This document shows positions 9,658 through 38,511 of a DNA stretch of 64,000 nucleotides, one piece after another. The notes beneath the pieces are model-generated. The model did no database searches. It was not told the DNA's origin and saw only the letters and a program-made list of their open reading frames with translations. The position numbers were made by a program, and so were the translations under genes. Source of the DNA: an uncultured Bacteroidota bacterium (GTDB taxonomy: Bacteria > Bacteroidota > Ignavibacteria > Palsa-1295); contig OY969726.1 in the NCBI GenBank assembly GCA_963702215.1, positions 1,809,533 through 1,873,532 of the forward strand, written 5' to 3'. Numbering within the stretch: position 1 is the first letter of the stretch; the number at the start of each line of letters is the position of its first letter.

Positions 9658-9824
9658 ATCCTGCTGAGGGAGCTTAAGCGCGATCCGTCTAGAAGTCCGT
9701 CGCACAGACAAAAATACCTGTGCCACTCCGCTCGTCACTTATTGTTTTGCCAGATTTTGTGCATCGCCCTCTTTTATATCATAAATTTGTAGTTAAGAAT
9801 TGTACCGAAGAAAGGCTCATCATA

Positions 9825-11103
9825 ATGAATTTTGAAATCGCAGACGAGATCGACATAGTAACCCCAACATTTCCGGCGCGGACGGTGCCGCCGGTATCGC
9901 AGATGGCGCAAGGGCTAATTGGCTCGGAGATCTTAAAAATCGCCGCCGATATTCGCGCGATGGTGGCGGAGGGGCACACAATCTGCAATCTCACCGTTGG
10001 CGATTTCGATCCAAAATACTTCCCGATCCCGAGGAGCCCTGCGAACGTCGATCGAAGCGGCGCTCGACGCCGGCGAAACGAATTATCCGCCGTCGGATGG
10101 AATGTTGAACGCTTCGCAAAGCCGTGAAAAGCTTTTACGAACGGCGGCTTGGCCTGGATTATCCAACCGAATCCTTCATCATCACGAGTGGCGCGCGGCC
10201 AGCGATTTATTCCACGTATGCCACGCTGATCGACGAAGGCGATAAGGTGGTTTACCCGGTTCCATCGTGGAATAATAATCATTATTGCCACGTGGCCCGC
10301 GCAACATGGGAACGTGCGGTCTGCCGCCCGGAGGATGCGTTTCCTTCCCACTCGCGAAGTGCTGGATGGCAAACTCGCCGATGCCAAATTGCTTTCGCTC
10401 TGCTCGCCGCTCAATCCGGCGGGCACCGCGTTTACCCGCGAGGCGCTGGAAGGAATTTGCGATCTCGTGATTGATGAGAATGATCGTCGCGGTCTCGGAT
10501 GACCGACCGCTTTTCATAATGTACGATCAGGTATATTGGATGCTGACGTTTGGCGAGACGGTGCATTACAACCCGGTTTCGCTTCGACCGGAGCTGGCTG
10601 CGAATACGATCTTTGTCGATGGCATCAGCAAAGCCTTCGCTGCAACGGGTGTGCGCGTCGGGTGGGCCGTGGCCGCGCCGGATGTTGCGCATCGCATGTC
10701 CAACATTTTGGGGCATATCGGTGCCTGGGCGCCTCGAGCGGAGCAGGTCGCCACGGCGGCGCTCCTCCTCGATGATGACGCCATCGATGGCTACCACGCA
10801 ACGATGATCGCGGAAATCGAGGCGCGCTTGAATCTGCTGTATCACGGCATTCGCGATTTGCGCGAAGCCGGGTTCCCCATGGATGCGATTACGCCGATGG
10901 GTGCGATTTACCTTACCGCGCGCTTCGATCTGATCGGCCGCAAATCCCCATTGGGAACGACTTTCGAGACAAACGAAGATATTCGCAAGTATTTGCTCGA
11001 AGAGGTGCGGCTGGCGGTCGTGCCGTTCCAGGCATTTGGTTCCGAAGGCAATTCGAGGCTGGTTCCGGCTCTCCGCCGGTGCGGTTTCGATGGAAGCCAT
11101 TGA
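9825..11103 (+). pseudogene. class I/II PLP-dependent aminotransferase, fragmented over at least four reading frames
   Basis: Consecutive ORF pieces recapitulate an aminotransferase: 9825-10127 (MNFEIADEIDIV...ICNLTVGDFD), 10124-10300 (FIITSGARPAIYSTYATLIDEGDKVVYPVPSWNNN), 10314-10502 (LSLCSPLNPAGTAFTREALEGICDL) and 10471-11103 (PLP-lysine motif GISKAFAATGVRVGW plus the C-terminal domain). Confidence 0.65.
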
Positions 11104-11166
11104 GGGGATGCTCGGACGACTGCGTACGGCGCTGGAATCCCTATAATCTTAAACTTCCGTTCTCGA

Positions 11167-13980: not shown

Positions 13981-14017
13981 AAAAAATAAGCCCTCGCAGA
14001 GAGATTCTGCGAGGGCT
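13981..14017 (-). terminator. rho-independent terminator for the large cargo gene C
   Basis: On the minus strand the sequence GCCCTCGCAGA-atctc-TCTGCGAGGGC forms an 11-bp perfect stem and is followed by TTATTTTTTG. Confidence 0.6.
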
Positions 14018-14058
14018 CCAAAAATACTCCTTCGAATTGCGAAGGAAGGGGAAGATTT

Positions 14059-17000
14059 TTACTTCTGCACCACGAACGGTACGGACTGCTCCGTTGCGCC
14101 ATCGGAAACGCGCAGGATATAACTGCCGCTGGGAAGCGCCGTTGTTTGTAGCGTAGCACTGTGCTCGCCGGTCAGGATCGGGTTTTGCCACATGAGTGTC
14201 AGGTCCCGCTGGCCGAGCGCGTCATAGATGTCCATCGTTAGCGGCACGCCATTGAGGCGGACGGAGTAGGCAACCGTGGCGTCACCCCTCGTGGGATTCG
14301 GCGTAATACTCTCAATCCGGAACGTTGGCGTTCCTCCGCTAAGCAAATTCCGAAGCGTAAGGTCCCCACAGCGGTCCAGGCCGGCAAAGGTTGCAGGGAT
14401 CGTATCATGCGAAACCCAGCAGACCGGATTGCCAGTCGAATCCTCATAGACGGGATCAATAATATCCAGTGTGGAAATCGAATCCTTGTTCACCACATAT
14501 TCCAAAGTGACGCTCGCGATCGAGCTATCGCCTTCGGTGATCGGGCTATTCGATTGAACGACCACGGTATTGAGCACAAAATTCGCGTCCGAAGGATCCG
14601 GACCGCTATTGTTCTGAATCACCCGCAAGCCGCTGGCATTATTACCTTGTGGCGTACCAGAGATAAACATATCGCGTTTGTAACGCAGGATAAACCGAAT
14701 GCGATAGATGCCCGATTGCATATTGAGGCCACCTAAGCCCGAGCCGAAGCTAATCGGAACGGTAACGCTCTCCGACGGATGCGCCGTATAGAGACCACCC
14801 GTCGCACCGCTCGCCAGGCTCAAGGTGTTCACGTAGTGTAACGGCGCGCCCGAGAGTTGCTCGAGGAACGAGGTGTCCATTCCCGTTTCCAGGTTGGTGA
14901 ACGTGTAACGCAAGTAGGCGCCGGTCCCGCCCGCGATCTGCGGATTGAACATCACGGTAAAGTTTACCGAGCCATTCAGATTCAGCGTGTCACCCAATGT
15001 CAAGCCGTGGGTTCCATTCGTGAATGTAAATTGGTTCGCTCCGTTGCTCGATAGTGCATCCACGATTTGGACGCTATCCAGGACCGCTGGTATCGTTCCC
15101 AAACTCTTCGCTGTCACGACGGCCGAATCGTTCCGGCAGACATAGACGTTGCCGAAATCGTGATTCGTCCCGGCAACCGCGAAGCTTGTGGCGATAACCT
15201 GCACCGGCGCGGTTTGAGCCATCGTGCATGCGGTATCCGCGCCCACGGCCAGAAGACTTCCGATGTTCGTGCCGCCTGGAACGCTGGCAAAGGTCACCAC
15301 GACCGGGGCACTATCGCCAGGAAGAATCTGCTCATTCGGAGTGTAGCCGGACAGCGCAAAGCCGCCATCGACCGTCAGGTCCGAAAGCACGAGCGTCGTA
15401 TCGCCATCATTGTGAATCCAGAAAGTCGTTCCCACGCTATCGCCGGGATTGACCGTTCCGAAATCGTCCGAGGGCGGCGTGATGCGGATCGTCGCGTGGC
15501 GGACGATGCCGGTTAGGATGAGTTCCGGCGTATAGATATTTTCACCGGAATTTCCCGAGGAACCATAAGCGATGATTGTATCCGTCCTTTCCCCGTATCC
15601 CTTGGTCAGGTCTGGAGTAAATTTGAGTATAACAAAGGCATCGGCACCTTTGGCAAGTTGCCACATTGTCGTTCTGGCTGCCATACTGCATACCGATGAT
15701 CGAGAACTCCGCTGCATCCGGACCATGGATTTGGACGCTATCTACGGCTACAGCCGCCGTCGCGCTAAGAGGATCCACGAGGTACACTGTATCGATCACA
15801 GGATTGCCGCATTCGGTCACGAAACCCTGGCTCGGGCGGTTCCAATTGAGTTCTGCCTTCACGCCAACTCCCAGAAGCTGCGAGGTGTCTTTAATCGAAT
15901 GGACAAACCACCCCGGGAGATTATCGCTCCAGTTCTGCAGCGATTCCGCAGCGCCGGTATCCTGAGGATGGAAGCAGAATTCAAGTGTGACGGTGGCTCC
16001 GGGCGGAATCGTCACAGGCAGGATGGAAGAGTCCGAAAACGAAAAGTCCGCATTCCCGCCGAGCCCCGATCCGGCACCGAGCGTGAGCGGCGCTTTGCCG
16101 ACATTCCGCACCGTGACCGGTTTGCAAATCGTATCTCCGACTGTTACATTGCCAAAATTGAGATCGCTCGCAATGATGAGTGGCGTGGTGCCAATGCCCG
16201 AGAGTGGATAGGGCAGCAGCGTGCAACTATCCTTCCCGATCGCCAAAAATAAGGTGTCAAACGATAGAAGCGTGTCGGACGGCGTGAAGCAAAGCTGGAG
16301 TGTGACGCTATCTCCCGGCTTGATCGTTCGGTTTATCTCCGTTGGAGATATTTTAAAGGTTCCCGCCGTATCGATGCCCATAACGTGGGCGCTCGCGACC
16401 GTAATCGGTCCGCCGCCAGTATTGACAAACGAAATCTGCTCACAGGAATCATCCGTCACCCGAACGGGTGCAATCTCGAATGGCGTCGGCGAGGGGCGAA
16501 GTTTCGGCGCAATGTAATAATATTGATACACGGTGTCGTTGCCGGCCTTATCCGTCGTCCAAACGGCGGCGTAGGCATCCTGCGTGGGATCGATGACGTT
16601 GAGGTCGAAATAGGCCGTGCTATCGCCCGAGGTGAATGGGTGCGACGGATCGAAGCTAAAGACGAAATTATGCGAGGACTTCGGCCAACGAGGATCGAGC
16701 GAATCGGTAATCAGCTGGATGTCCGAAATTTTTGTATCTTCGAAACTAAACGTGGGCTCGTGCCGAGTCTCCAAAAATTCCACCTGGAAATTGGTACATG
16801 AGGAATCCACCTTTTCCAGAGGCGGCAGCGTATCGGGCGACGGAATTCCCAGGGCCATGCCGGCCGGATGGCCGTAACTTTCGTATTGCGACCAGCCATA
16901 CAAATAGCATGCGAATGGCGAGCCGCAACTGGCAACATAGCAAGTCGAGGTTCCCGGAAACTGAATGCGGTAACATCCCATGAGGGGTTTCGTCCCGGGA

Positions 17001-18322
17001 ATGACCGAATGCCCCGCCGGGGGATAGAAGGTGATTGGTTCCCCATTGATCATGATGTGCAGGATCGAATCGTCCTCGCATAAGAAAGTTCCGTAATGGA
17101 CAAACCCCGCCACCCCGGTTCGATCCGGTGGCCGAAAGATCATCTTATTCTGGAACTGTTCCTTCGGCGTGAGGACGATCGAAAATGGATCGGAGAGTCC
17201 CGGATCCCCATCGTAATTCTGGCTATATGCCATTTGGACCGCGAGGAACTTTTCTCCGCCCTGAGAAGAAATCGTGCTCGGCTCGACCACCTCATCGAAA
17301 TCGTAATAATCACCTGCATGGAGCAGTGTGGTCTGCTGATTCCGATTGGCGCTCACAAGCGTAACCGTCACATTATCTTGTCCCGCAATCACACGAATCA
17401 AATCGCCGCACACGACGCGTGTTGCTGTTGGCATGTCGTAATACTGCGTTCCCCATTCCTGTATGGGCGGAACCATCTCCATCACTTCGTCCTTGGAGCC
17501 ATTCGAGGCGGCCAGTTCCCCGATGGGAATCGAGCAAAGCTGGTGCCCGGAGATGAGCCCGATTGGCTTCGTGCTCGTGATATGAGTCCCAGTTAGGTCC
17601 GCATCGCCATACTGCAGTCCGGTCGATTGCACGAGGTACGTTTGGCCCTTCATGAGCGTGATGTTCCAGGTGTCGCCCGCATGGTGCAGAATGGTTGTCG
17701 CGTTTGGGTCCTGTCGCGTATCCGTCTTCACGGGGCCAATCGTGACGAGATTATTGTCATAAGGCGAAATAATCAAAAACTGCCCCGCCAGGGGAGGAGT
17801 CCCAAGCAGCGTGTAATGATCGTCGTAATAGCACGCGGGGTAATACTCGGTTCCCAGCGCCGGCGTCGGGATGGCAAGATAACTGTCGGTTGAGGAGGTA
17901 TTGGCTCCGGTATATTGATAGCCATAGACCACGACTGGATTCTTTGAATAAACATGAATACCAAAATTGACTGCTTCCTCCGGCGAATAATCTTCCCACG
18001 CCGCTTCACTCCGTGCCGGAACCGTCCAAATGCTATTGGGCGTCATCGTGGAATGGTATGTCTCTACCGGGCCGGACGAGCCGCCATAGACATCGACGTG
18101 AACATCGTTAGCGGTTCCCGTACCAATGTAGAGCACGCAATTCTCTGGCGGGCAGCAGTTTAGTCCAAACGAATTTGGCATGAACCCCATCCAGAAATCG
18201 GTTCCCATCGAAGTTTGGCCTTTTTGGGCAACCGCGCCCGAGGGCCAAAGCCACGCCGAAACAAGCAGGAGTGCTGCCCAGTGAAGGAAATTCAGACGCA
18301 AAGACTGACGAGTTATATACAT
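14059..18322 (-). CDS. giant T9SS-secreted cell-surface protein (paralog C), apparently interrupted by a frameshift at 15542-15726
   Basis: The 941-aa ORF has a signal peptide (MYITRQSLRLNFLHWAALLLVSAWLWPSGAVAQ) and an N-terminal GTDFWMGFMPN domain homologous to the paralogs at 19401 and 23881, but it has no sorting domain. The overlapping 555-aa ORF has no signal peptide and ends with a T9SS C-terminal sorting domain (NPTRGDATVAY...LTMDIYDALGQR...GSYILRVSDG...VVQK). Fused, they would give a protein of about 1450 aa, matching paralog A. Confidence 0.6.
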
Positions 18323-18420
18323 GGAATTCCGAAAATAAGAAAAACAAAGTTCTGAGACGCGCCGCATGCGCGCCTCACTTAACTACCACCCGCCGCACCA
18401 TTGCGGCAACTCTTCCCCGT

Positions 18421-19230
18421 TTATCCGCGGATGAAGTAGCGGATAGCGATTCCGCCGAAGAGCGACGATGCGCGCCAGGCTTCCGGCGCATCCACTTGCG
18501 TCAGCGGGAAATCATAACCAACGACGGGCGTAGCGATCCAGTCATTCGAAAACGAAATATCGTATGTAGCCGCAGCGCGAAGCGCGATGCGGAGCGACTG
18601 CGCAGTCGCAATCGCGGTGGACGAGGTGACGGTTTGCGTCACATCCTGATTGTCCTGCGAAGCGCTCGGCGAGATTGCGGAAACGGTAACGGTCTTATTG
18701 AGCGTCGCCCCCATTTTAATTCCCACCGTGGGTCCGATCATAATGCCGGGGCCAACGGGGCTTGGGCCGGGCGTGAAGTTATATTTGTATGCCAGGTTCA
18801 CTTCAAGATAGCTCACGTTCGCGGTAAGCGAAGTGGTAACGCTGGAATTATCATCGACGTGGCCATTTTCCTTCGTGGGAGTGGTTACAGCGCTTGAATT
18901 CAAGTTATTGAACTTCGAGGACTTCGAATCGAAGATCACTTCGCCCACGATGAAGTTCTGAAGCGCATCCGCATTCCCGAGCGGGAACTCGAGCGAAACG
19001 CCGCCCCAGGCCGCTACATCCGAACCATTCTGAGCCAAAAAGCACGTAGGCTCCGAATTCAGGATGGGAAACTGATTGGAATTATAGGTCACGAGATTGA
19101 TGCCGCCTACCGGTCCGGCCAAAAAGCCGACCTGCACCGAAGGCGTCAGAACGCCCTGTGCGGAAGCACGGCCGAACTGGATTGCAAGGAAAGCGAAAGC
19201 AAATAGAATTAAAAAGAGACGAGTACGCAT
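18421..19230 (-). CDS. outer-membrane beta-barrel protein (OMP_b-brl/PorT-like class) embedded between T9SS cargo genes
   Basis: The signal peptide MRTRLFLILFAFAFLAIQFGRASAQ suggests a start at 19230. The mature region of about 245 aa shows amphipathic beta-strand periodicity. The N-terminus does not resemble PorP/SprF. Confidence 0.5.
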   Translation of the reverse strand: MRTRLFLILFAFAFLAIQFGRASAQGVLTPSVQVGFLAGPVGGINLVTYNSNQFPILNSEPTCFLAQNGSDVAAWGGVSLEFPLGNADALQNFIVGEVIFDSKSSKFNNLNSSAVTTPTKENGHVDDNSSVTTSLTANVSYLEVNLAYKYNFTPGPSPVGPGIMIGPTVGIKMGATLNKTVTVSAISPSASQDNQDVTQTVTSSTAIATAQSLRIALRAAATYDISFSNDWIATPVVGYDFPLTQVDAPEAWRASSLFGGIAIRYFIRG

Positions 19231-19400
19231 GGTTTTGTTCGTTAAGTCGAGTGTGTTTGTTAAAAGCTTGCAGTGGCTACGACGCATGAATCGTTCATAC
19301 CGTGATCTCTCATGCGCGAAAGGTTGAGTTTCCAAGTCCTTTCGGCTGCCGTTAGTTCCGCAAATTGAAAATCGTTCATTCGATGACTCCATTTTTCATT

Positions 19401-22400
19401 TTACCGGTCAATCACGAATTGCTTCGAGATGACACTTCTGCCCAGGTTGCCTTCGGCAGAAAGCCGGTATGTATAGGTACCGGCGGGAAGCTTCGCGACA
19501 TCCGCGGAAGCTTCCCACGAGCCAGCTTCGTGATATACATTGCCCACGGGCCGCGCTACTTCGCGACCGAGCACATCGTAAATCGTAAGTGTCAGCCTCG
19601 CCGGCGCCCAATTCGCATATTGGAACGTTATTTCGCCCCCGGTCACCGGATCCGGCTTCGCCGGCTGAATGAAGGCGACGATGCCTCCGCCCTGCATAAA
19701 GCCGCGCAAGGTTGGATCGCCGCAACGCTGAATCAGGCTGAAATTGCTATCGGCCACCATCGGATTGATGCATCCGGCGGTTGCGCTGTCACTGAAAAAT
19801 GTGAGCTCCGCGAGCGTGACATTCGTCGCCGTATCGAGTTTTGGCAGCGTAACGGTAAAGCCGATCTGGCCTAAAGTGATGGTGCCATTCGGAAGCTTTG
19901 GGCCGCGCAGCACGAGCACGACGCTATCCCCCAGCTTCGTTACATACGATCCCGGCGCCACGCTCCAACCCGGTGGAAGCCCAGCAACCGCGTTTGTGAG
20001 ATCGCCTTTCGTGATATTCAGCAAATCCGGATTTGAAATGAGATAGACGAGCCGCACGCCCGTAATATCCAAATCTGTATCGTTCACTGTCAGGTTGCGC
20101 GGATTGACCGTGAGCGACATCGGAAGATCCGCCGTCGTCCCTGCGTTGCCGCTCGGCGGCGGGAACTGCGAAGTCACTTCGACATCGACAAAGTTCGAGG
20201 TGCCCTGAACCGTGGCAACAACGGTAGAAATCGATTTGGAATTCTTCAGCGCGAAGGCGATCGAGTCGATGTCCGTGTGCAGATTCGAATCCTGCGCGTT
20301 CGGAATGAATTCCACCGGAATGCGAAGGAAACTATCGCTCGGAATAATCAGTCCTTCTGGATTCGTTGGGAACAAGAATGCAGTGCTATCCGCCCCGAGC
20401 CAATTTGCCGAATGGATCGTATCCGCTTCCGGGCTGGGGTTCGTGATCGTGATCGTGTCCATCGTATGTGAGCAAGCGAGGATGGGCGAGGATACCGTGC
20501 TTTGAGCCACATCCGGTGGCAAGCCGGAAATGCTTAGGGCGTAGATCGATGTGTCACATGCTGTGCTTGCGAACTCGAGATTCACCCACTGTGAATCGAC
20601 AAAGCTCACCGAAGGATCGAACGTAACCGACACCGTAAGCGATTGCCCCTGCGTAAGCGTAACCGGCAACCCATTGCCCGCGCTCGGCGAAACCGAATAC
20701 GATCCCGGCGAGCTGCCATTGACTGGCGCAAACGAAATATCGTTATAGATAACCGGCGTTGCATTCGGATTCGTGATGGTAAATGTCTTCGTAACCTTAC
20801 CGCTCTGATAGGGAACCTGCCCAAAATCGAGCGTGGGCGGATTGAACGTCATGGTAAGCTCGTTGACCTGGATATGGGCGATAACTTTGCCCATCGGCTG
20901 ATTATCCGAGCCGTACGCCGTGATGGTGTCCCACGCCGAGGCATTCCCACCGGTGGGAACTCCATAGGTGACGACGATGGTATCCGCGCCACCGCTCTTG
21001 GCGAGCGTTTGCGCCACTTTGGCGGGGTCCCACGTAGAGTCGTTCGCTAAAATGCCAATAGGTTTCGAGAAATCCAAAGTATTCGATGCAGTGACACGGT
21101 TAACAATGGCATCCGCCGAGCCGCTATTCGAAAGCACGAACGTCAGCCGGAGCGTATCGCCGGCCTGCGGGCAGTCGATCGTGTCGTCGATATTCTGGGC
21201 GAAGGTCACTTGCGCCACAATCGGGTTTCCAAAGAGGGAATCGTTATGGAAATCGAGCGAGCCATTGGCGTTTTCGCCGGCGCTTTCCCAATAACCTTGT
21301 GCCTTATCCTGCTCGACGACGGTGGGCTGATAGATGAACCAGACGGAATCGAGACCATCCGGGCCATTCACGGTTTTTTTCTTGGGAACCGTTACTGTTT
21401 TTGCTTGATAGGGCGCAAGGTAAAAATGCGTGGGGTCCGAGACCGAATCGAATTTCACAACGAGGTCCTCGAGCGATGTTTTGTTGTGAATCACCACGGG
21501 CTTTTGCACCCATCCGGTATCTTTTGTGAGCGGCACATTCAGCCAGGTTTGGTTATCGACGCTATAATCGGCGGCGCCGGCATTGCCCTCGGCCACCGGA
21601 GCCATCGCCAGGCATTCGCTCCCGAAATCCAGCGTATCGTACGCTTCCTGGCCCTTCTTTGGCGTGAACTGAATCTCTACGACGCGCGAAGAATCGGCCG
21701 GTATCGGGCTCAAATCTGGATTGACTAAGCTGAATCCCTGGTTCCCAAGTTTCAAGGTTAGCGTCTTGATATCGAAGGGCGTTTTGCCCGTATTGCGAAT
21801 CGTATCGTAGAGTACGGCGGTTACCCCAAGCGCAACCGTTCCGAAATCCTGCACGGCCGGAACGATTGTGGCGTAATTTGGCTGGTATCTACTAACGATG
21901 CTCGTCGCATTGCCGGCGATGTCATACACCGTCACTTGAAGGTAGCCCTCTTTCGTCGGATCGGTGACGGATATTCCGTAGCCGGAGGTGTCCAGCCCCA
22001 CGCCCTCGAGCCAATCCGAATCGAGGGTGAACGTCATGTTGTAGTCGCTATCGATCTGAATCTTTGCAAGCTTGGTTGCAAGCGCACCGGTATCGGAAAG
22101 ATGGATGAACGCGTCGTAGCATGCGCTGAACGTATCGGCTTCGGGCGGAATGGTATCGGTCGCGTGAAACGTTCCGGTTCCGAAGGAGCCCACCCACGCA
22201 TAAGACTCATCAAAGCCATAGCCATAAATATACACGCCAGCCCCGGCGGTGTCGCCGGCGATAATGTGGACCCCCGATGGCAGATGTTTATAGGTAAATA
22301 TTTCAAACGTATCGTCGATGTTCTGCTTAGTCGAGTTTAGCGTCAGAATGCTATTGCCATCGATAGTCGTGGTGGCCTCATCGTTCTTATTGATGGTGAT

Positions 22401-23690
22401 CGTAGCGTAATTATCATAGGCCTGTTGCCCATTGCCGGGTATCGGGGATTCGAATACCACCGTTTTCGTGAATTGTTCGCGCGGATTAATTACCACTTCG
22501 GCCGGATCGCCATCCCCGTTGACGTGGTCAGGATAGCTGGAACTATTAATATATTCGACCAGCATAAAGGGTGCGTCGCTCCAGAACTTTTGAGCCAGTT
22601 CGATTTCATCCCAGTAGGTGCCATATTTACTGCCAATCACACATTCTTGACTTGTTCCGCCTTGCGCGGAGTTGTACTTCCAAATGGTCTGGCCCGGTTT
22701 GGAAGACACAAATAGATACAGCCCATAATCATGACCATTCTGCCCGGTCGGCTGGGTAAAGTAAGTGCTGTAGTATGTCGATGCCCATGTCCGGACGGGC
22801 GGCATCATGTGCTCCACATGGTCGCAGTAAGGAAAATCAAGTGGAATATTCGTACACATGGAGCCGCCGATGACCCCAACCGGATTGTTCGAGTGAACGA
22901 TTGTTCCGGTCACATCATAATTGTCGGCATTTGTCGCAAGCACTGAAAGGAACTGCTCACTCTCGCCGCGATTGAGCGTAATTTGAAAGGTGTGACCCGC
23001 CGCGTACCCGACCGTCGAAACACTTTCACCACCCTGCCGGAGATCGCATGCCGGGGTAATTTGGATGACCGTGTTATCGGTATTCGCGGCAATGGTGAAT
23101 TCGGATGGGTAGTCCGCGCTTGGTTCAAAGAGAGAGGCATATCCCGCTACCACATAGTCCGTGCCCCAGCCTATGGTGGGAACGACATAGGTTCCATCGG
23201 AAGTGTATTCGTCGTGGGACATGAAATAGACCGTCAGATCCGCATCATTCGACCAGACATGCACCGCCTGCTCGACGGACCCGCTATTCTCGATCTCATC
23301 AGAAAAAGGCAGGTTAATGGTAGCAATCTTATAGGCCGTTACCGCAACGGACTGCGCGATCCCGGTTCCCAGTGCTGCGTAGGCGGTGGTGTTATAAGGC
23401 GAGGTAATGAACAAATGGAGATACTTCCCACCCGTGTTCACACCCCAGTAATTCGAGGGCACCCCGAACCAGAATTCACGCCCCATTGTGGGCGGCGATT
23501 CATGGAGTTTCGTTATACTATGGGTGATGAAGCCGGATTGCGCGCGCACCGGCTGCGTCGTAAAAACGGCAAGAGTGGCAAGCAGGACGAGAGCCACGAG
23601 ACCACGCGAGTGGCGCAGCGTTGGGCGCAGCGTTGCGTGCAACGCCGGGCGCGAGATACCGCAGCTTGAATTCCGGTGAATAATTCTCAT
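19401..23690 (-). CDS. giant T9SS cargo / putative adhesin (paralog A, 1429 aa)
   Basis: It has a signal peptide. The N-terminal domain of about 640 aa is about 60% identical to paralog B (GREFWFGVPSNYWG...VHVWSNDADLTVYFMS...GGSMCTNIPLDFPYCDHVEHMMPPVRTW...ELAQKFWSDAPFMLVEYINSSSYPD). The C-terminal T9SS sorting domain is LTLTIYDVLGREVA...AGTYTYRL...QFVIDR. Confidence 0.75.
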   Translation of the reverse strand: MRIIHRNSSCGISRPALHATLRPTLRHSRGLVALVLLATLAVFTTQPVRAQSGFITHSITKLHESPPTMGREFWFGVPSNYWGVNTGGKYLHLFITSPYNTTAYAALGTGIAQSVAVTAYKIATINLPFSDEIENSGSVEQAVHVWSNDADLTVYFMSHDEYTSDGTYVVPTIGWGTDYVVAGYASLFEPSADYPSEFTIAANTDNTVIQITPACDLRQGGESVSTVGYAAGHTFQITLNRGESEQFLSVLATNADNYDVTGTIVHSNNPVGVIGGSMCTNIPLDFPYCDHVEHMMPPVRTWASTYYSTYFTQPTGQNGHDYGLYLFVSSKPGQTIWKYNSAQGGTSQECVIGSKYGTYWDEIELAQKFWSDAPFMLVEYINSSSYPDHVNGDGDPAEVVINPREQFTKTVVFESPIPGNGQQAYDNYATITINKNDEATTTIDGNSILTLNSTKQNIDDTFEIFTYKHLPSGVHIIAGDTAGAGVYIYGYGFDESYAWVGSFGTGTFHATDTIPPEADTFSACYDAFIHLSDTGALATKLAKIQIDSDYNMTFTLDSDWLEGVGLDTSGYGISVTDPTKEGYLQVTVYDIAGNATSIVSRYQPNYATIVPAVQDFGTVALGVTAVLYDTIRNTGKTPFDIKTLTLKLGNQGFSLVNPDLSPIPADSSRVVEIQFTPKKGQEAYDTLDFGSECLAMAPVAEGNAGAADYSVDNQTWLNVPLTKDTGWVQKPVVIHNKTSLEDLVVKFDSVSDPTHFYLAPYQAKTVTVPKKKTVNGPDGLDSVWFIYQPTVVEQDKAQGYWESAGENANGSLDFHNDSLFGNPIVAQVTFAQNIDDTIDCPQAGDTLRLTFVLSNSGSADAIVNRVTASNTLDFSKPIGILANDSTWDPAKVAQTLAKSGGADTIVVTYGVPTGGNASAWDTITAYGSDNQPMGKVIAHIQVNELTMTFNPPTLDFGQVPYQSGKVTKTFTITNPNATPVIYNDISFAPVNGSSPGSYSVSPSAGNGLPVTLTQGQSLTVSVTFDPSVSFVDSQWVNLEFASTACDTSIYALSISGLPPDVAQSTVSSPILACSHTMDTITITNPSPEADTIHSANWLGADSTAFLFPTNPEGLIIPSDSFLRIPVEFIPNAQDSNLHTDIDSIAFALKNSKSISTVVATVQGTSNFVDVEVTSQFPPPSGNAGTTADLPMSLTVNPRNLTVNDTDLDITGVRLVYLISNPDLLNITKGDLTNAVAGLPPGWSVAPGSYVTKLGDSVVLVLRGPKLPNGTITLGQIGFTVTLPKLDTATNVTLAELTFFSDSATAGCINPMVADSNFSLIQRCGDPTLRGFMQGGGIVAFIQPAKPDPVTGGEITFQYANWAPARLTLTIYDVLGREVARPVGNVYHEAGSWEASADVAKLPAGTYTYRLSAEGNLGRSVISKQFVIDR

Positions 23691-23880
23691 CGAAGTGTGG
23701 AGGGCTTCGCGACTCCATCGCGAAGATACCTTCTATAGTTAAAAACGCGCGGAAGGCTTCGGGTTACAAATTATTTTTATGAATTGTGGACATCCACCCA
23801 AAAATCCCGCGCTCAATTTGCAAAGCAATTCCAAGCGAAACAGTTCAGCGACGCAACCTAATTCCCCGTGGCGGGCGGCA

Positions 23881-26568
23881 TCAACGCTCTTTTACAGCCC
23901 GCTTCGTCCGAACGATGCTCCCTGCTTCGAGCCGAACGAAATACGTCCCAGCAGGCCACGAGGCAGTGTTTAGCTCATACTCAGAAGCTTCGGTGAGCGC
24001 ATCCGCGGCCGGAGTGGCCATGGTTCGGCCCAGCACATCTAAGACACTCAGCGTCGCCGGAATGTCCCGCGCGAGGCTCACGTGGATTTCCAATTTATCA
24101 CTGAAAGGGTTATTTACGACCTGAAGATCGCTCGCCGATACACTTTGGACGGGAGCGACTGAAGCCACCGCCGCATTTCCAATCAGGCTATCGGTTCGAA
24201 TGCTTTCGGTTTTGCCATCGGAGGCGAGGACTTGCGGGCTTGTCCAGGTGCCTAACGTTCTGTTGGGAATCATTGCGGAGCTATCGTCCGGAAAATATGC
24301 GATGTGGAAGGGAACGGAACTCGTAGGCGGCACGGCGAGCGGGAATCTATCGTCGGCAAGGAAATGCCGGTCCGGCCACCAACCGGTATCGATCGTGATC
24401 GGCCAGGCTGAAAGATTGTGAATGCTTACCGCCATGATATATCCCGCCGGCGGCGCGGGAATGGATTCATTCAACCAGCGGGCATCACTCACGCTAAAAT
24501 CGGCAGTGCCGGCGTTGCCGACGAGCGCCGCGATTTCGGTGCTGCAACTGTCGCCAAAGAGCAAGCCATCGACGGTGGATCCCGAACTCGTTGGCTGAAA
24601 CGAAATTTTTAGAACCCGGCGCTCGCCTGGTTGAAGCGTCGAAGGCGTCATGCCGCTATCCAAAGTAAATCCAAGGTTCCCGTCGGCGAGCGCGAGCTTC
24701 GTGAACGGATATGGCACGGAGCCAGTATTGACAAGCGTATCGTACGCGTACTTAATCGATGACGTACTATCGGAACCAAAATATTGCACCGCCGGCTCGA
24801 TCGAAGCCGTTTGCGGCGAGTAGGTGCTTGCAATCGTCGTTCGGTTGCCGGCCACATCGAATGCTTCCACTTGAAGATAGGCCGGCTTTGTGGGATCGAG
24901 GACGTACATGCTGTAATCAGAAGTATCGCTGCCAATGCCTTCCAGAAAATTCAGATTCGGAAAATAAGCCATGTTAGACTCGGAATCGAGGCGAATCATA
25001 GTCAACTGGCTTTGCGGAATTCCGCCGGGATTCATTCCCGAATCCGCGAGATGCACAAAGGATTCGTAACACGCTCCCTTAATCATTGCCTTCGGCGCGA
25101 CGGTATCCGGCGAGCGATATGTCGAAATCCCCAGCGGCCCGCTCCAGGCGTAGGCTTCGTCGTGACCATAGCCATAGGTATAAACCCCAACCCCGGAGGA
25201 ATCTCCCGTAACAACATGGACTCCGGGCGCGACATGCGGAATGGTAAACACCTCGAAGGTGTCGTCAATGGGCTGCACCCTATATTGCGGGAGATTCTTC
25301 CCGTCGAATGTTGTTTGGGTGACTTCGCCCACCTTCAGGATAATGGTCGCATAATTGTCGTAAGGCAGTTGTGAGCCAGCGCTGATCGGTGTTTGGAATA
25401 CGACGTTTTTTGTGTATTGCCCGCGCGAAGGAATGACAACCTCCGCCGGATCGCCAAGGCCATTCACCCCATCCGGATAGCTGGAACTATTAATATATTC
25501 GACCAGCATAAACGGCGCATCACTCCAAAACTTTTGTGCGAGTTCCAGCTCATCCCAATAGAGATCGTACTGACCGGCGAGTTGACACTCCACGTGCATC
25601 CCGGAGCCGTAATCCTGCCGATAAAAAGTTTGGCCAGCTTTCGAAGCCACGAAAAGATACAATCCGTAATCATGCCCGGGTTGGCCAGCAGGCTGAACGA
25701 AATTGGTTGTATAATACACGGTTCCCCAGGTGCGAACCGGCGGAATCATGTGCTCGACGTGATCGCAATACGGATAATCAATTGGGATATTCGTACACAT
25801 CGACCCACCAATTACGCCTACGGGATTGCTTGAGCGTATGACCGTTCCGGTGACATCGAACCCTGTCACATCAGTCGCCGAGTCAGACATGAACTGTATG
25901 CTTTCGCCGCGATTGAGAGTATCAATAAAGGTTTCTCCCGCCGGATAAGCGACGATGGATGCATTCTTGCCAGCTCCGCTAGCCCGACGAATGTCGCACG
26001 ATGGCGTAATTTCGAGGACTGTCTTGTCGGATGCTGCGGCAACGGTGAATTCCGAGGGGTAATCGCCATTTGGTTCAGAAATCGCTCCAAATCCCGCAAC
26101 GACATAATCGGTGCCCCAGCCAATCGTCGGAATAATGTAGGAGCCATCCAACGTAGTAAAGTCATCGGACATGAAATAGACGGTCAAATCCGCATCGTTC
26201 GACCAGACATGAACGGCCTTGGTTTCCGCTATGCCGCTCAATTCCATTTCCCAGGAGAAGGGAACCGCAAAGCTCGATACGTTATAGGCTTGGACAGGCA
26301 CGGCGACAGCTCCGCCGACCCCCACGCCGACGTAAGCTGTCGTATTTTTCGCCGAACTAATATAAATCCGAAGATACTTCCCACCGTTATCCACTCCCCA
26401 GAAATTCGATGGAATTCCGAACCAGAAATCCCGCCCTGCGGTGGGCGGCGCGTGCTGTTCGGTCGTGATTTGGTTTTGAATGCGCGCCGATTGCGCGTGG
26501 GCGAAGCCAAACGAGCACGCAATAAGGGCGAAAGCCGCAAGGAAAATCCGGCGAGGTGAGTGGTTCAC
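23881..26568 (-). CDS. T9SS cargo / putative adhesin (paralog B, 895 aa)
   Basis: The signal peptide is MNHSPRRIFLAAFALIACSFGFAHAQ. It shares the N-terminal domain with paralog A (GRDFWFGIPSNFWG...). The T9SS C-terminal sorting domain is LSVLDVLGRTMA...AGTYFVRLEAG...AVKER. Confidence 0.75.
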   Translation of the reverse strand: MNHSPRRIFLAAFALIACSFGFAHAQSARIQNQITTEQHAPPTAGRDFWFGIPSNFWGVDNGGKYLRIYISSAKNTTAYVGVGVGGAVAVPVQAYNVSSFAVPFSWEMELSGIAETKAVHVWSNDADLTVYFMSDDFTTLDGSYIIPTIGWGTDYVVAGFGAISEPNGDYPSEFTVAAASDKTVLEITPSCDIRRASGAGKNASIVAYPAGETFIDTLNRGESIQFMSDSATDVTGFDVTGTVIRSSNPVGVIGGSMCTNIPIDYPYCDHVEHMIPPVRTWGTVYYTTNFVQPAGQPGHDYGLYLFVASKAGQTFYRQDYGSGMHVECQLAGQYDLYWDELELAQKFWSDAPFMLVEYINSSSYPDGVNGLGDPAEVVIPSRGQYTKNVVFQTPISAGSQLPYDNYATIILKVGEVTQTTFDGKNLPQYRVQPIDDTFEVFTIPHVAPGVHVVTGDSSGVGVYTYGYGHDEAYAWSGPLGISTYRSPDTVAPKAMIKGACYESFVHLADSGMNPGGIPQSQLTMIRLDSESNMAYFPNLNFLEGIGSDTSDYSMYVLDPTKPAYLQVEAFDVAGNRTTIASTYSPQTASIEPAVQYFGSDSTSSIKYAYDTLVNTGSVPYPFTKLALADGNLGFTLDSGMTPSTLQPGERRVLKISFQPTSSGSTVDGLLFGDSCSTEIAALVGNAGTADFSVSDARWLNESIPAPPAGYIMAVSIHNLSAWPITIDTGWWPDRHFLADDRFPLAVPPTSSVPFHIAYFPDDSSAMIPNRTLGTWTSPQVLASDGKTESIRTDSLIGNAAVASVAPVQSVSASDLQVVNNPFSDKLEIHVSLARDIPATLSVLDVLGRTMATPAADALTEASEYELNTASWPAGTYFVRLEAGSIVRTKRAVKER

Positions 26569-27005: not shown

Positions 27006-28907
27006 CTATTGCATCATCATTTCAATTTGCTTGCGAAGTTCCTCGATGCTCTTAGCGAGCTTGGGTTCGAGCTTCATATCCTCATGGATGGCCTGAACGG
27101 CGTGGATGACGGTGGAGTGGTCGCGCCCGCCAAAATGAAAGCCGATGGATTTGAGCGAATGGTTCGTCATCTCCTTGCAGAGGTACATTGCAATTTGCCG
27201 CGCCAGCACGACTTCCTGTTTCCGAGTCTTATGGCGCAAAAGCTCCTCCTCGATTCCCATGCGTACTGCAACGGTATGCTGAATCGCCTCAATGGAAATA
27301 ATCGGCGCAGCGCGTTTGGCGATCTTTCGGAGCACCTCGCGCGCCAGATCGAGCGTGGGTTCCCGGCCTTCGAGCGAGGACATCGCCAGCAGCGAAATCA
27401 GGCAGCCTTCGAGTTCACGGATGTTCGAGGTAATGTTCGAGGCGATATATTCGATTACTTCACCCGGAAGCTCGATCCCATCGGCGATGGCTTTGTGCCG
27501 AAGGATTGCGATACGCGTTTCGAGATCGGGTGCACCAATATCGGTCGTGAGGCCCCATTGCAGTCGGTTGAGCAGGCGGTCGTCGATGTCTTTTAGTTCC
27601 TTCGGCGCGCGGTCGCAGGTGAGGATGATTTGCTTGCCAAGCTCACGAAGCGCGTTGAAGGTATGAAAGAAAATATCCTGAGTTTTTTCTTTGCCGGCAA
27701 AGAATTGCACATCGTCGATAATGAGAACGTCGATCGAGCGATAGAGCGCCTGGAATTCGTTGATTCGGTCGTTCTGAATCGCATCGACAAATTCGACGGT
27801 GAATCGCTCGCTCGAAGTGTAAAGGACCTTCGCCGATGGGAATTTTTGCATCGCCGCGTGGCCGATCGCCTGAATAAGGTGCGTCTTACCCAATCCGACG
27901 TTGCCATAAATAACGAGCGGATTATATCGCGTGCCGCCCGGGTTATTTGCGACCGCCATCGCCGCGCCATACGCTAATTTATTCGATTCGCCACGAATGA
28001 ATGTATCGAACGTGTATCGCGGGTTTAGCAGCGATTCGAAGGCCGCCGCGGCGGGCCGCTTCCCATTCGAACTTGCTCCATTCGCGGAGATTCGGATCGG
28101 GGATGTGCCGGAAATTGACGCAGCGGGATGCGCCATGCCGTTTAGGCTGGTTGGTTCGTTCGTAACCCGCGAGCTAAATGGCTCGGGTGCGGAAGGTCGC
28201 GCAAATGGTTCCGAACGAAACGCCGGTGGCTGCTCGCTCATCCGCGGAGCCGAATCCGATTTCATCGCGGGTTCGAGTTTCGTGTTCAGGGACTCGACCT
28301 CGTTTACGCTATCGAATCGGAAGCGAGCCACCGGGCCTAAGACCGCGTGAAGGGATCGCTCTAAAATATCCTGGTAATGCTCGCCGATCCATTCGCAGAA
28401 GAAGCTGCTTGGAGCGCGCAGCGTCATCTCCGATCCTTCCAGCGCGACTGCGCGAAGCGGTTCGAACCACGTACGCATCGTTTGCGCCGAAAGCTGCGGG
28501 CGTATTGTGTCCAGGCACATCCGCCAGATTCGTTCCGCCGCAGCCTGTAAGTTTGCAGCGGAGGATTGCTCATCGGCATTTAATGAGCGCTCATCGGTTG
28601 TCGAATCCAATTCGGATTCAGGTGCTAATTCGGCCGCAGCAATCGCCGGTTCCACACCATAATTTGAATTCCGATCGATCTCAGGAGCAGCTAGCGGCTC
28701 TGACTGCGGAACCGCCGATTGACGCGCCAAATGGCCAGCATCCGGCCACGCGTCGATCAAATTTTCAGAATTCGTGGATAACCGAGCCCGATCGGCGACA
28801 CGAGCGTGCTCGCTCCGTGCTGATTCGCTAATTCGCAGGTCGCTTTTTCTTGAGGATGAGTGGGCGGAAGCCAGGGGCGTACGGTTATCTACGGAAAACT
28901 CGGTCAT
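27006..28907 (-). CDS. dnaA: chromosomal replication initiator protein DnaA, with an unusually long N-terminal/linker region
   Basis: AAA+ Walker A GNVGLGKTHL, Walker B LIIDDVQF, and sensor and box VII motifs are present. The C-terminal DNA-binding domain is (K/R)TRKQEVVLARQIAMYL. The start is probably MTEFSV at about 28907. A low-complexity S/A/P/E-rich segment of about 280 aa precedes domain III. Confidence 0.93.
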   Translation of the reverse strand: MTEFSVDNRTPLASAHSSSRKSDLRISESARSEHARVADRARLSTNSENLIDAWPDAGHLARQSAVPQSEPLAAPEIDRNSNYGVEPAIAAAELAPESELDSTTDERSLNADEQSSAANLQAAAERIWRMCLDTIRPQLSAQTMRTWFEPLRAVALEGSEMTLRAPSSFFCEWIGEHYQDILERSLHAVLGPVARFRFDSVNEVESLNTKLEPAMKSDSAPRMSEQPPAFRSEPFARPSAPEPFSSRVTNEPTSLNGMAHPAASISGTSPIRISANGASSNGKRPAAAAFESLLNPRYTFDTFIRGESNKLAYGAAMAVANNPGGTRYNPLVIYGNVGLGKTHLIQAIGHAAMQKFPSAKVLYTSSERFTVEFVDAIQNDRINEFQALYRSIDVLIIDDVQFFAGKEKTQDIFFHTFNALRELGKQIILTCDRAPKELKDIDDRLLNRLQWGLTTDIGAPDLETRIAILRHKAIADGIELPGEVIEYIASNITSNIRELEGCLISLLAMSSLEGREPTLDLAREVLRKIAKRAAPIISIEAIQHTVAVRMGIEEELLRHKTRKQEVVLARQIAMYLCKEMTNHSLKSIGFHFGGRDHSTVIHAVQAIHEDMKLEPKLAKSIEELRKQIEMMMQ

Positions 28908-28940
28908 GGTCTTGATGGGTCGTAACAGAAGGAGAAACAC

Positions 28941-38401: not shown

Positions 38402-38511
38402 ATCCGCCCTTTTTGTTCCACAGCTCAAACAGCGATCGAGTGGGATAATTCGCATGGGACAAATTATTGACCTAATGCAGCCGTGATCTCTACCGCCGAA
38501 CGAAGCCCCGC

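What the first reader, a model, noticed from the sequence alone, without database searches (positions are those of the whole stretch)
14059..26568. Origin-proximal cluster of three paralogous giant T9SS cargo proteins sharing a large N-terminal domain, plus an embedded OMP
Three consecutive minus-strand genes (1429 aa, 895 aa, and 941+555 aa fused) all start with a signal peptide followed by a shared domain. Paralogs A and B are about 60% identical over roughly 640 aa, with blocks GR(E/D)FWFG(V/I)PSN(Y/F)WG, VHVWSNDADLTVYFMS, GGSMCTNIP(L/I)D(F/Y)PYCDHVEHM(M/I)PPVRTW and ELAQKFWSDAPFMLVEYINSSSYPD. Paralog C retains GTDFWMGFMPN. All three end in T9SS C-terminal sorting domains. The opening G-T/R-E/D-F-W-x-x-F-x-x-N motif resembles the start of the IgGFc-binding-protein N-terminal beta-helix domain that is common in Bacteroidota adhesins. 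That assignment is from memory and needs an HMM search. An outer-membrane beta-barrel gene of about 245 aa (18421-19230) sits between paralogs A and C in the same orientation, the way PorP/SprF-type partners accompany T9SS adhesins. The whole block abuts dnaA where dnaN would normally be. The PCDHVEHM(M/I)PP block is conserved between A and B and could be a metal- or catalytic site, which is speculative.
Basis: partly seen in the sequence, partly recalled or inferred. Interest (0 to 1): 0.7.

Follow-up and report, generated by a model that had tools for sequence, protein, structure and literature searches.

The report
Kapaibacteria T9SS surface-protein paralog cluster
Three related genes for large secreted cell-surface proteins, plus a small outer-membrane barrel gene, form a cluster that recurs throughout an uncultured bacterial class; it is a new example of a known protein type, and only the fixed pairing with the barrel gene appears to be new.

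Summary
Minus-strand genes B (23881-26568), A (19401-23690) and C (14059-18367) each carry a signal peptide, an N-terminal FCGBP_N/IgGFc_binding domain (PF17517, E 1e-42 to 1e-49), Ig-like repeats and a type A T9SS sorting domain. A and B are about 59% identical over the N-terminal 590 aa; C is about 25% identical to both.

C is split by a +1 frameshift at 15666-15680. This is probably an assembly error, because housekeeping genes in the window are split too and all six C orthologs checked are intact.

The 269-aa gene between A and C encodes a small OmpW/NspA-like beta-barrel. It is not a PorP/SprF, PorT or PorQ protein. An A-type gene lies directly upstream of its ortholog in every related Kapaibacteria locus with enough flank.

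The dnaA adjacency is specific to this genome. Relatives carry a PorE-like PD40-OmpA gene there instead.

The PYCDHVEHM block is not a metal site. Its cysteine covaries with a second cysteine like a disulfide, and the histidines are not conserved.

No beta-helix fold was found. The N-terminal module has no solved structural relative.

Verdict: a new member of a known kind, of modest interest.

The parts
23881..26568 (-). Paralog B, 895 aa: signal peptide, FCGBP_N module, two Ig-like domains, type A T9SS CTD. It is the short form of the family.
   Evidence: ORF. PF17517 E 3.7e-48 at aa 142-466. TIGR04183 30.4 bits against a cutoff of 23, at aa 820-893. Identical to database protein P0125 on a 3.58-Mb contig. 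Orthologous short forms lie upstream of A in L003, L004, L008 and L043.
19401..23690 (-). Paralog A, 1429 aa: signal peptide, FCGBP_N module, about 800 aa of Ig-like (ASH/HYDIN/choice-of-anchor D) domains, type A CTD. It is the conserved member that always precedes the OMP gene.
   Evidence: PF17517 E 2.9e-49 at aa 165-490. HYDIN-like Ig E 7.6e-15. Choice-of-anchor D 50.1 bits (cutoff 45) and TIGR04183 25.0 bits (cutoff 23). Orthologs of 1420-1550 aa in all related loci.
22221..23198 (-). PF17517 (IgGFc_binding/FCGBP_N) match within A, aa 165-490. The homologous module begins earlier, at the GREFWFG motif (aa 70).
   Evidence: The AlphaFold2 model of aa 61-653 has pLDDT 86.8 and pTM 0.81 and is all-beta.
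25171..26145 (-). PF17517 match within B (aa 142-466).
16895..17887 (-). PF17517 match within C (aa 161-491 of the C1 ORF).
   Evidence: E 9.7e-42.
22824..22859 (-). Cys278...Cys289 of A (GGSMC...PYC): a probable disulfide flanking the 'PYCDHVEHM' block.
   Evidence: Co-occurrence in 139 family members: 92 have both, 45 have neither, 2 have one only.
18421..19230 (-). Small outer-membrane beta-barrel protein, 269 aa with a signal peptide ending AQ. It belongs to a family found here only in Kapaibacteria-type sequences.
14059..18367 (-). Paralog C, about 1430 aa when restored: signal peptide, divergent FCGBP_N, Ig-like/choice-of-anchor D domains, type A CTD. It reads as two ORFs (15542-18367 and 14059-15726) because of a +1 frameshift.
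   Evidence: The six orthologs checked are single ORFs of 1404-1472 codons.
15666..15680 (-). Site of the +1 frameshift that splits C. There is no homopolymer or slippery motif.
   Evidence: blastx against four intact orthologs switches frame between these positions. Sequence.
19404..19655 (-). Type A T9SS C-terminal sorting domain of A.
   Evidence: TIGR04183 and PF18962 at aa 1346-1415.
23890..24111 (-). Type A T9SS C-terminal sorting domain of B.
   Evidence: TIGR04183 at aa 820-893.
14065..14307 (-). Type A T9SS C-terminal sorting domain of C.
   Evidence: TIGR04183 29.0 bits at C2 aa 474-554.
13988..14018 (-). Terminator-like hairpin (13-bp stem followed by a T run) just downstream of the C stop codon. 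It probably marks the end of the cluster's transcription.
   Evidence: This is a consensus match only; the number of such sites in the region is not above chance.

Best explanation
The block is a cluster typical of the Kapaibacteria lineage. It encodes three paralogous cell-surface proteins that are cargo of the type IX secretion system.

Each protein is expected to take the following route:
1. It is exported by Sec, using its N-terminal signal peptide.
2. Its type A C-terminal domain is recognised, and it is moved across the outer membrane by the T9SS.
3. It follows the canonical type A route: PorV shuttle, CTD removal by the PorU sortase, and covalent attachment to an anionic lipopolysaccharide.

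The result would be a cell-attached stalk of Ig-like domains carrying the N-terminal FCGBP_N module at its outer end, as a binding (adhesin-like) head. The ligand is unknown. The family is heavily duplicated in these genomes, in tandem arrays and with long and short forms, which fits a diversified surface repertoire.

The 269-aa gene after A encodes a small OmpW/NspA-like outer-membrane barrel that always accompanies the A ortholog. I consider a functional link to A plausible but unproven.

C is most likely an intact gene whose apparent frameshift is an assembly error. The position next to dnaA is a rearrangement breakpoint specific to this genome.

Shown: the domain content, the paralogy, the synteny and the barrel fold. 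Inferred: surface display, adhesin role, anchoring route and any A-OMP interaction.
For: - Domains: PF17517 at 143.7-168.4 bits, and Ig-like ASH/HYDIN/DUF1573 families. TIGR04183 is above cutoff in A, B and C2, and choice-of-anchor D is above cutoff in A and C1.
- Signal peptides ending in AQ/AQS are visible in the translations.
- Paralogy.
- Family size and expansion: 4866 cluster representatives at E<=1e-3. A related genome has a tandem array of at least 5 paralogs.
- The architecture FCGBP_N plus Bacteroidota secretion/gliding domains was already described (PMC4948705).
- Type A route: PMC9143113 and PMC12618676.
- OMP fold.
- A-OMP adjacency: all 26 species-representative loci and L001 and 9 of 11 metagenome loci. 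The genes are on the same strand, 46-232 bp apart. Extra paralogs lie on either side of the pair but never between its two genes.
- Frameshift as artefact: the aminotransferase and DHO_dh-like genes in the window are also frame-split relative to their orthologs, and the C orthologs checked are intact.
- dnaA: no dnaA in any related locus. A PD40-OmpA gene bounds the cluster instead.
Against: - No T9SS core gene lies in the 64-kb window, so the machinery is only presumed from the lineage and the CTDs.
- No bacterial FCGBP_N protein has a demonstrated function. The human domain does not bind IgG (PMC8267560), so 'adhesin' is an inference from architecture.
- The N-terminal module has no solved structural relative from which to borrow a function.
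- TAL and PGI are conserved in the same block as A and the OMP, so the A-OMP adjacency could be plain synteny.
- The frameshift is not in a homopolymer and could be a real mutation.
Confidence: 0.6

Rival explanations
1. A and the OMP form a dedicated cargo-anchor or cargo-shuttle pair that works like SprB-SprF or PG1035-PorP-PorE, although the OMP is not homologous to PorP. In relatives the upstream PorE-like PD40-OmpA protein would join them. The barrel would hold or deliver the A protein at the outer membrane, and the PD40-OmpA protein would tie the complex to peptidoglycan.
For: - A is always directly upstream of the OMP, on the same strand, and never separated from it by the frequent paralog insertions.
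- All named sequences in the OMP family come from the same clade.
- In 14 loci a PD40-OmpA gene with a 164-bit match to the PorE family model starts the block.
- A PorE-PorP-cargo complex is a known arrangement (PMC9143113), and cognate shuttles are encoded next to their cargo (PMC12618676).
Against: - The CTDs are type A, for which PorV/PorU anchoring needs no private barrel (PMC12618676). There is no type B CTD hit, and CHU_C is below cutoff.
- The barrel has no PorP/SprF, PorQ or PorT signal and is a small OmpW/NspA-like barrel.
- The PD40-OmpA protein scores far below the PorE cutoff (164 against 600 bits) and equally resembles the CHU_0125 envelope-integrity family.
- TAL-PGI is co-conserved, so synteny alone explains the data.
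- The window's own cluster lacks the PD40-OmpA neighbour.
Confidence: 0.25
2. The barrel is an ordinary housekeeping outer-membrane protein of Kapaibacteria, such as a major small OMP. It sits in a stable syntenic block (PD40-OmpA, A, OMP, TAL, PGI) and has no specific functional tie to the FCGBP_N proteins.
For: - The whole block, including central-metabolism genes, is conserved.
- The OMP is more conserved (47-81%) than A (36-70% in the N-terminal domain, 26-63% in the middle).
- Intergenic gaps of up to 232 bp leave room for its own promoter.
- A distant OMP paralog (L029) and tandem OMP triplication (L014) occur without matching cargo duplication.
- Most FCGBP_N paralogs elsewhere have no such neighbour.
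Against: Paralog insertions never separate A from the OMP, although they occur immediately on both sides of the pair. The neighbours on the upstream side are also envelope proteins.
Confidence: 0.4
3. The shared N-terminal domain is an enzyme, for example a glycoside hydrolase, lyase or protease, with the conserved PYCDHVEHMxPP block as its metal or catalytic site. The proteins would then be secreted degradative enzymes rather than adhesins.
For: Many T9SS cargos are hydrolases (PMC11205867). The block is strongly conserved between A and B. An acidic residue, Met, Pro-Pro, Trp-Gly and Tyr are family-wide.
Against: - No catalytic family is hit in Pfam or NCBIfam.
- No enzyme fold appears among the structural matches.
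- Cys289 behaves as half of a disulfide. His291 is replaced by F or Y in 63 of 139 members, and His294 by E or D in 122 of 139.
- The conserved positions look like a structural core signature.
Confidence: 0.05
4. C is a genuine pseudogene and the cluster is decaying in this genome. It has lost the upstream paralog X and the PD40-OmpA gene through the rearrangement that brought dnaA next to B.
For: The frameshift is real in the sequence as given and is not in a homopolymer. The upstream part of the cluster seen in close relatives is missing here.
Against: At least three further frameshifts split housekeeping genes within 3 kb of the same window, which points to assembly indels. Both halves of C keep full-length homology without other lesions.
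Confidence: 0.15

Closest known systems
Bacterial FCGBP_N (PF17517 IgGFc_binding) proteins of Flavobacteriia, Cytophagia and Sphingobacteriia with CHU_C, PKD or SprB domains (Lang et al. 2016, PMC4948705)
   Same: A signal peptide is followed directly by the FCGBP_N module at the N-terminus, then repeated beta-sandwich domains and a Bacteroidota C-terminal secretion domain. The genes are multi-copy within genomes. The function is unknown.
   Different: The host is the uncultured class Kapaibacteria. The CTD is type A (TIGR04183) rather than CHU_C/type B. The stalk is made of ASH/HYDIN/choice-of-anchor-D Ig-like domains. One ortholog has a fixed small-OMP neighbour.
SprB-SprF (Flavobacterium johnsoniae) and PG1035-PorP-PorE (Porphyromonas gingivalis) cargo-shuttle/anchor complexes (PMC9143113, PMC12618676)
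   Same: A large T9SS surface protein is encoded next to an outer-membrane beta-barrel gene. In relatives a PD40 + OmpA (PorE-like) gene lies in the same block.
   Different: Those systems use type B CTDs and PorP/SprF-family barrels. Here the CTD is type A, and the barrel is a non-homologous OmpW/NspA-like protein with no PF11751 or TIGR03519 match. No interaction has been shown.
Type A CTD cargo such as gingipains, anchored via PorV, PorU and A-LPS
   Same: A C-terminal TIGR04183/PF18962 domain above the curated cutoff, at the extreme C-terminus, preceded by Ig-like domains.
   Different: No protease or other catalytic domain is present. The machinery and A-LPS pathway have not been verified for this organism.
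Human FCGBP N-terminal domain (FCGBP-N1)
   Same: A homologous domain (the same Pfam family) located at the N-terminus of a secreted protein.
   Different: The human protein continues with 13 vWD-C8-TIL units. The domain does not bind IgG (PMC8267560) and its role is unknown, so the family name carries no functional information for the bacterial proteins.
Small outer-membrane barrels OmpW, NspA and the OmpA/OprF N-domain, and Pfam OMP_b-brl_2 (PF13568)
   Different: Sequence identity is only 9-16%. The window protein itself does not reach PF13568. The family has its own conserved motifs (such as YKYNFTPGPSPVGPG) and a fixed genomic partner.

Membership tests
PF17517 IgGFc_binding / FCGBP_N | Match to the family HMM above the gathering score | tested here: met
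   A 168.4, B 164.8 and C1 143.7 bits against a cutoff of 25.6. Nearly the full profile is covered (1-297 or 2-297 of 297).
PF17517 IgGFc_binding / FCGBP_N | Domain placed at the N-terminus of a secreted protein, directly after the signal peptide (Lang et al. 2016) | tested here: met
   Hydrophobic signal sequences end in AQ/AQS, followed within 20-25 aa by the G-R/T-E/D-F-W motif. No signal-peptide predictor was available.
PF17517 IgGFc_binding / FCGBP_N | Binding of IgG Fc, as the family name implies | not testable with these tools
   The human N-terminal domain showed no IgG binding (PMC8267560), so this is not a true family property.
T9SS type A C-terminal sorting domain (TIGR04183 / PF18962) | HMM match above the curated cutoff, at the extreme C-terminus | tested here: met
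   TIGR04183: B 30.4, A 25.0 and C2 29.0 bits against a cutoff of 23, ending 2-15 residues from the stop codon. The family profile also matches the solved CTD 8glj_D.
T9SS type A C-terminal sorting domain (TIGR04183 / PF18962) | T9SS machinery (PorK/L/M/N, Sov/SprA, PorV, PorU) encoded in the same genome | not testable with these tools
   Only the 64-kb window is available and it holds no core T9SS gene. A PorE/CHU_0125-like paralog at 43121-44911 scores 115 bits against a cutoff of 600.
T9SS type B CTD (TIGR04131 / PF13585 CHU_C) | HMM match above cutoff | tested here: not met
   No TIGR04131 hit at E<=0.1. CHU_C scores only 19.1 bits against a cutoff of 27, in A.
PorP/SprF family T9SS membrane protein (PF11751 / TIGR03519) | HMM match of the barrel protein | tested here: not met
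   No hit at E<=10 in Pfam for the window protein. None at E<=1 in Pfam or NCBIfam for the 24 family members.
PorP/SprF family T9SS membrane protein (PF11751 / TIGR03519) | Encoded next to a cognate type B CTD cargo | tested here: not met
   The neighbouring cargos carry type A CTDs.
PorT / PorQ / PorG small T9SS barrels | Match to the NCBIfam models for these proteins | tested here: not met
   The only NCBIfam hit is TDE1717-family OMP at 17 bits against a cutoff of 135. Whether the library holds a model for each of these proteins was not verified.
Small outer-membrane beta-barrel (OmpW/NspA/OmpA-N type; Pfam OMP_b-brl_2 PF13568) | Signal peptide plus predicted closed antiparallel membrane barrel | tested here: met
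Small outer-membrane beta-barrel (OmpW/NspA/OmpA-N type; Pfam OMP_b-brl_2 PF13568) | PF13568 HMM match | tested here: inconclusive
   12 of 24 family members match (best E 4.4e-10), but the window protein itself does not. Precomputed PF13568 hits are recorded on many homologs.
Choice-of-anchor D domain (NF012200) | HMM match above the cutoff of 45 bits | tested here: met
   A 50.1 and C1 75.7 bits. B (20.1) and C2 (40.8) are below cutoff.
PorE family T9SS protein (NF052230), for the PD40-OmpA gene that bounds the cluster in relatives | HMM match above the curated cutoff (600 bits) | tested here: not met
   L001 protein: 164.4 bits, E 3.3e-48. The CHU_0125 family scores 187.9 bits against a cutoff of 620. 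The protein is related to both families and a certified member of neither.

The most novel reading that the evidence does not exclude
Kapaibacteria may have a private outer-membrane module for one type A T9SS cargo. Its parts would be a PorE-like PD40-OmpA protein, the FCGBP_N surface protein A, and a small OmpW-like barrel unrelated to PorP. The barrel would anchor or shuttle its neighbour. This would extend the principle of a cognate barrel encoded next to its cargo, so far known only for type B CTDs and PorP/SprF proteins, to type A cargo and to a different barrel family. It would also give the functionally orphan FCGBP_N domain its first defined cellular context.
Probability: 0.2. Interest if true: 0.55.

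Novelty: new member of a known kind. Interest (0 to 1): 0.3.

Why it matters
FCGBP_N is a large domain family: 4866 cluster representatives were found here, and it is shared by animals and bacteria. It has no known function and no solved structure. The invariant pairing of one Kapaibacteria ortholog with a clade-specific small barrel, and in relatives with a PorE-like gene, gives a concrete hypothesis to test about how such proteins are held at the surface.

Otherwise the cluster is an ordinary example of expanded T9SS surface-protein genes in a Bacteroidota-related lineage. Practical lessons are that the dnaA adjacency and the conserved 'PCDHVEHM' block carry no special meaning. This assembly also contains frameshifts, so split genes in it should not be read as pseudogenes or fusions without checking.

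Tried and rejected
- Exact-sequence look-ups of the window's own proteins (A, and the OMP as P0001) found no contig record, so the source genome could not be examined beyond the window. Cluster look-up gave no name or accession.
- The afdb50 fold library was unavailable, so the taxonomic spread of the fold was taken from the phmmer search instead.
- A sequence-profile search of the PDB found only Hydin-type Ig repeats and T9SS CTDs, and nothing for the FCGBP_N part.
- Literature searches for PF17517 or IgGFc-binding together with T9SS, and for Kapabacteria together with T9SS, gave no functional study.
- The sigma-70 promoter and terminator scans were at chance level. Bacteroidota-type promoters are not covered by that tool.
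- DnaA boxes are not enriched, and the composition profile shows no skew switch, so 'origin-proximal' could not be substantiated.
- The DNA repeat search only recovered the A/B paralogy at 71-79% DNA identity, which indicates an old duplication. It found no mobile-element repeats flanking the cluster.
- Programmed +1 frameshifting in C was considered and rejected. There is no slippery or homopolymer context, and neighbouring housekeeping genes show similar breaks.
- The metagenome scan added only close relatives. No lineage was found in which the OMP is separated from both A and TAL, so synteny and functional linkage could not be told apart.
Full report
**Observation.** The ORF list and translations confirm five consecutive minus-strand reading frames:
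- B, 23881-26568, 895 aa.
- A, 19401-23690, 1429 aa.
- A small ORF, 18421-19392.
- C1, 15542-18367, 941 aa.
- C2, 14059-15726, 555 aa, overlapping C1 in another frame.

A and B are 48% identical over 825 aa, 59% over the N-terminal ~590 aa and 60% over the first 450 aa of the mature protein. A and C1 are 24% identical over 731 aa, E 2e-27. The C-terminal third of A aligns with C2, including the CGD(P/L)TLR segment and the sorting domain, so A and C1+C2 share one overall architecture. dnaA lies directly upstream of B at 27006-28940 (DnaA_N, Bac_DnaA and Bac_DnaA_C domains). Transaldolase and glucose-6-phosphate isomerase follow C.

**Domain identity.**
- All three proteins match Pfam PF17517 (IgGFc_binding, the FCGBP_N domain) over essentially the whole profile: 168.4, 164.8 and 143.7 bits against a gathering score of 25.6.
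- A, B and C2 end in a type A T9SS sorting domain: TIGR04183 at 25.0, 30.4 and 29.0 bits against a cutoff of 23.
- There is no type B signal. No TIGR04131 hit was found, and CHU_C is below cutoff.
- The middle parts consist of ASH/HYDIN/DUF1573-type Ig-like domains, and choice-of-anchor D is above cutoff in A and C1.

**The frameshift in C.** The six C-type orthologs checked in related loci are single ORFs of 1404-1472 codons. blastx of the junction against four of them switches from one frame to the next between window 15680 and 15666, inside a variable loop. The local sequence has no homopolymer or slippery site. The same window also holds frame-split housekeeping genes. An aminotransferase whose ortholog has 437 aa is read in three frames (9831-10493, 10495-11055, 11057-11143). 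A DHO_dh-like gene of 397 aa is read in two frames that break at about 8960. A related long-read assembly likewise shows a split FCGBP_N gene. I therefore read 'C1+C2' as one gene of about 1430 aa with an assembly indel (probability about 0.8), not as a fusion, a programmed frameshift or a pseudogene.

**Organism and family context.** The small ORF's product has 142 database homologs. All that carry names come from Candidatus Kapabacteria/Kapaibacterium MAGs or from bins labelled Bacteroidota or Ignavibacteriota. One is 100% identical and lies on a 3.58-Mb contig. Protein B is found on that same contig. The FCGBP_N part of A retrieves 4866 cluster representatives at E<=1e-3 and 139 at E<=1e-30. 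Related genomes hold many paralogs, including a tandem array of at least five and solitary copies. Lang et al. 2016 (PMC4948705) had already described FCGBP_N at the N-terminus of 564 bacterial proteins, mostly from Flavobacteria, Cytophaga and Sphingobacteria. There it occurs together with CHU_C, PKD and SprB domains, its function is unknown, and a link to gliding is only speculative. The human domain does not bind IgG (PMC8267560), so the family name says nothing about function.

**The PYCDHVEHMxPP block.** I compared 139 family members.
- Cys289 and Cys278 (in GGSMC) are present together in 92 members, absent together in 45, and unpaired in only 2. This is the pattern of a disulfide.
- His291 is H in 74, F in 41 and Y in 22 members.
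- His294 is E in 75, D in 47 and H in only 11 members.
- The constant positions across the family, including paralog C, are D/N290, an acidic residue at 294, M295, P297-P298, W302-G303 and Y306.

This is a structural signature of the family, not a His/Cys metal or catalytic site.

**Synteny.** I scanned one genome per species with the OMP alignment and obtained 27 loci. Twenty-six are titled Kapaibacterium, Ignavibacteriota/Ignavibacteriae, Bacteroidetes/Bacteroidota or simply 'bacterium'. L027 is labelled Alphaproteobacteria and is probably a mislabelled bin.
- In all 26 primary loci, and in L001, an A-type gene (FCGBP_N, Ig middle, CTD) ends 46-232 bp upstream of the OMP on the same strand.
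- The same holds in 9 of 11 metagenome loci. The other two have less than 300 nt of upstream sequence.
- Downstream lies TAL(-PGI). A C-type gene is inserted between the OMP and TAL in the window's closest relatives and in a few others.
- Extra A/B-type paralogs lie upstream of A in many loci.
- L014 has three tandem OMP copies.
- Nothing is ever inserted between A and the OMP.
- Upstream of the FCGBP_N genes, 14 loci carry an 858-878-aa PD40 beta-propeller + OmpA protein. It scores 164 bits on the PorE family model and 188 bits on the CHU_0125 family model, both far below the curated cutoffs.
- The full order in a close relative is PD40-OmpA, X, B, A, OMP, C, TAL, PGI.
- No related locus contains dnaA. 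The window has no ortholog of the PD40-OmpA gene or of X, only a 596-aa paralog at 43121-44911.

The dnaA adjacency is thus a breakpoint specific to this genome. From general knowledge, not tested here, dnaA-dnaN linkage is not universal in this superphylum, so 'where dnaN would be' carries no weight.

**Mechanism.** The best-supported reading is that A, B and C are Sec-exported cargo of the T9SS type A route. They would be displayed on the cell surface, with the FCGBP_N module held distally on an Ig-like stalk as a binding head. The family would be diversified by duplication.
- Shown: the domain content, paralogy, synteny and barrel fold.
- Inferred from the established behaviour of type A CTD proteins: surface display and the anchoring route.
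- Inferred from architecture only: the adhesin role.

The role of the barrel is open. I give about 0.25 to a dedicated anchoring or shuttle partnership with A, functionally like SprB-SprF or PG1035-PorP-PorE but not homologous to them. I give about 0.4 to plain synteny of a housekeeping OMP. The remainder is undetermined. TAL and PGI are co-conserved in the same block, so adjacency alone cannot decide between these.

**Novelty and score.** The protein type (FCGBP_N plus a Bacteroidota secretion domain) is known, and tandem expansion of T9SS surface proteins is common, so this is a new member of a known kind. The literature I searched does not report the invariant A-OMP pairing across Kapaibacteria, nor the PorE-like gene that bounds the block in relatives. 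It is a reasonable lead for T9SS specialists but rests on synteny alone. Interest is 0.3. The most novel reading still allowed, a private barrel module for a type A cargo, gets probability 0.2 and interest 0.55 if true.

Noticed in passing
window 8430-9618 (+) and 9720-11143 (+): Two housekeeping genes are broken by frameshifts relative to their orthologs in L001. A DHO_dh-like gene (397 aa) is read in 2 frames, and an aminotransferase (437 aa) is read in 3 frames. This indicates frequent indel errors in the assembly, or less probably widespread pseudogenisation.
   Followed up: partly
L001:2606-5182, L043:2433-5069 and 12 other loci: A conserved 858-878-aa PD40 beta-propeller + OmpA protein lies directly upstream of the FCGBP_N gene block in relatives, on the same strand. 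It scores 164 bits on the PorE family model and 188 bits on the CHU_0125 family model, both far below cutoff. It is absent from this position in the window.
   Followed up: partly
window 43121-44911 (-): A 596-aa PD40 + OmpA protein, a PorE/CHU_0125-like paralog (115 and 119 bits against cutoffs of 600 and 620). It is followed by a 484-aa ORF (41670-43124) with no family hit.
   Followed up: partly
window 52582-54900 (-): A 772-aa Sortilin/BNR-repeat protein with a weak Por_Secre_tail match (20.7 bits, below cutoff). It may be another T9SS cargo.
   Followed up: no
L014:10001-12535: Three tandem copies of the OMP gene. The second and third are about 35% identical to the window protein. They lie between the A-type gene and TAL.
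   Followed up: no
L030:1-12628: A related genome carries a separate tandem array of at least five FCGBP_N/T9SS paralogs with no OMP gene. The array includes a gene split into 490-aa and 666-aa ORFs, and is followed by several FlgD_ig/cohesin-like giant genes on the other strand.
   Followed up: no
window 18745-18789 (-), OMP aa 148-162: The motif YKYNFTPGPSPVGPG is nearly invariant across the OMP family, as are Cys63 and the NGS(D/G) motif. Such conservation is unusual for a loop or turn of a small barrel, so this could be an interaction site.
   Followed up: no
L027 (CAYOJJ010000002.1): The bin is labelled 'uncultured Alphaproteobacteria bacterium' but carries the complete Kapaibacteria-type block (PD40-OmpA, A, OMP, TAL). 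It is probably mislabelled or mis-binned.
   Followed up: no
window 27006-28940 (-): The dnaA ORF is 644 codons long, but the DnaA_N domain starts only at residue 137. The true start is probably much later. The single perfect DnaA box (29093) and two one-mismatch boxes (28773, 26387) lie near dnaA, without overall enrichment.
   Followed up: partly
window 18353-18377 (-) and 19231-19400 (-): A GC-rich hairpin overlaps the OMP-C junction. A 7-bp inverted repeat (CGAAAGG...CCTTTCG) lies in the 170-bp A-OMP spacer. Either could be a terminator or attenuator.
   Followed up: no
window 37472-38455 (-) and 47856-49673 (-): Further predicted surface-type proteins: one with PKD domains and one with Big_5 domains. 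No CTD match was listed for either at E<=1e-5 and E<=1e-3 respectively.
   Followed up: no
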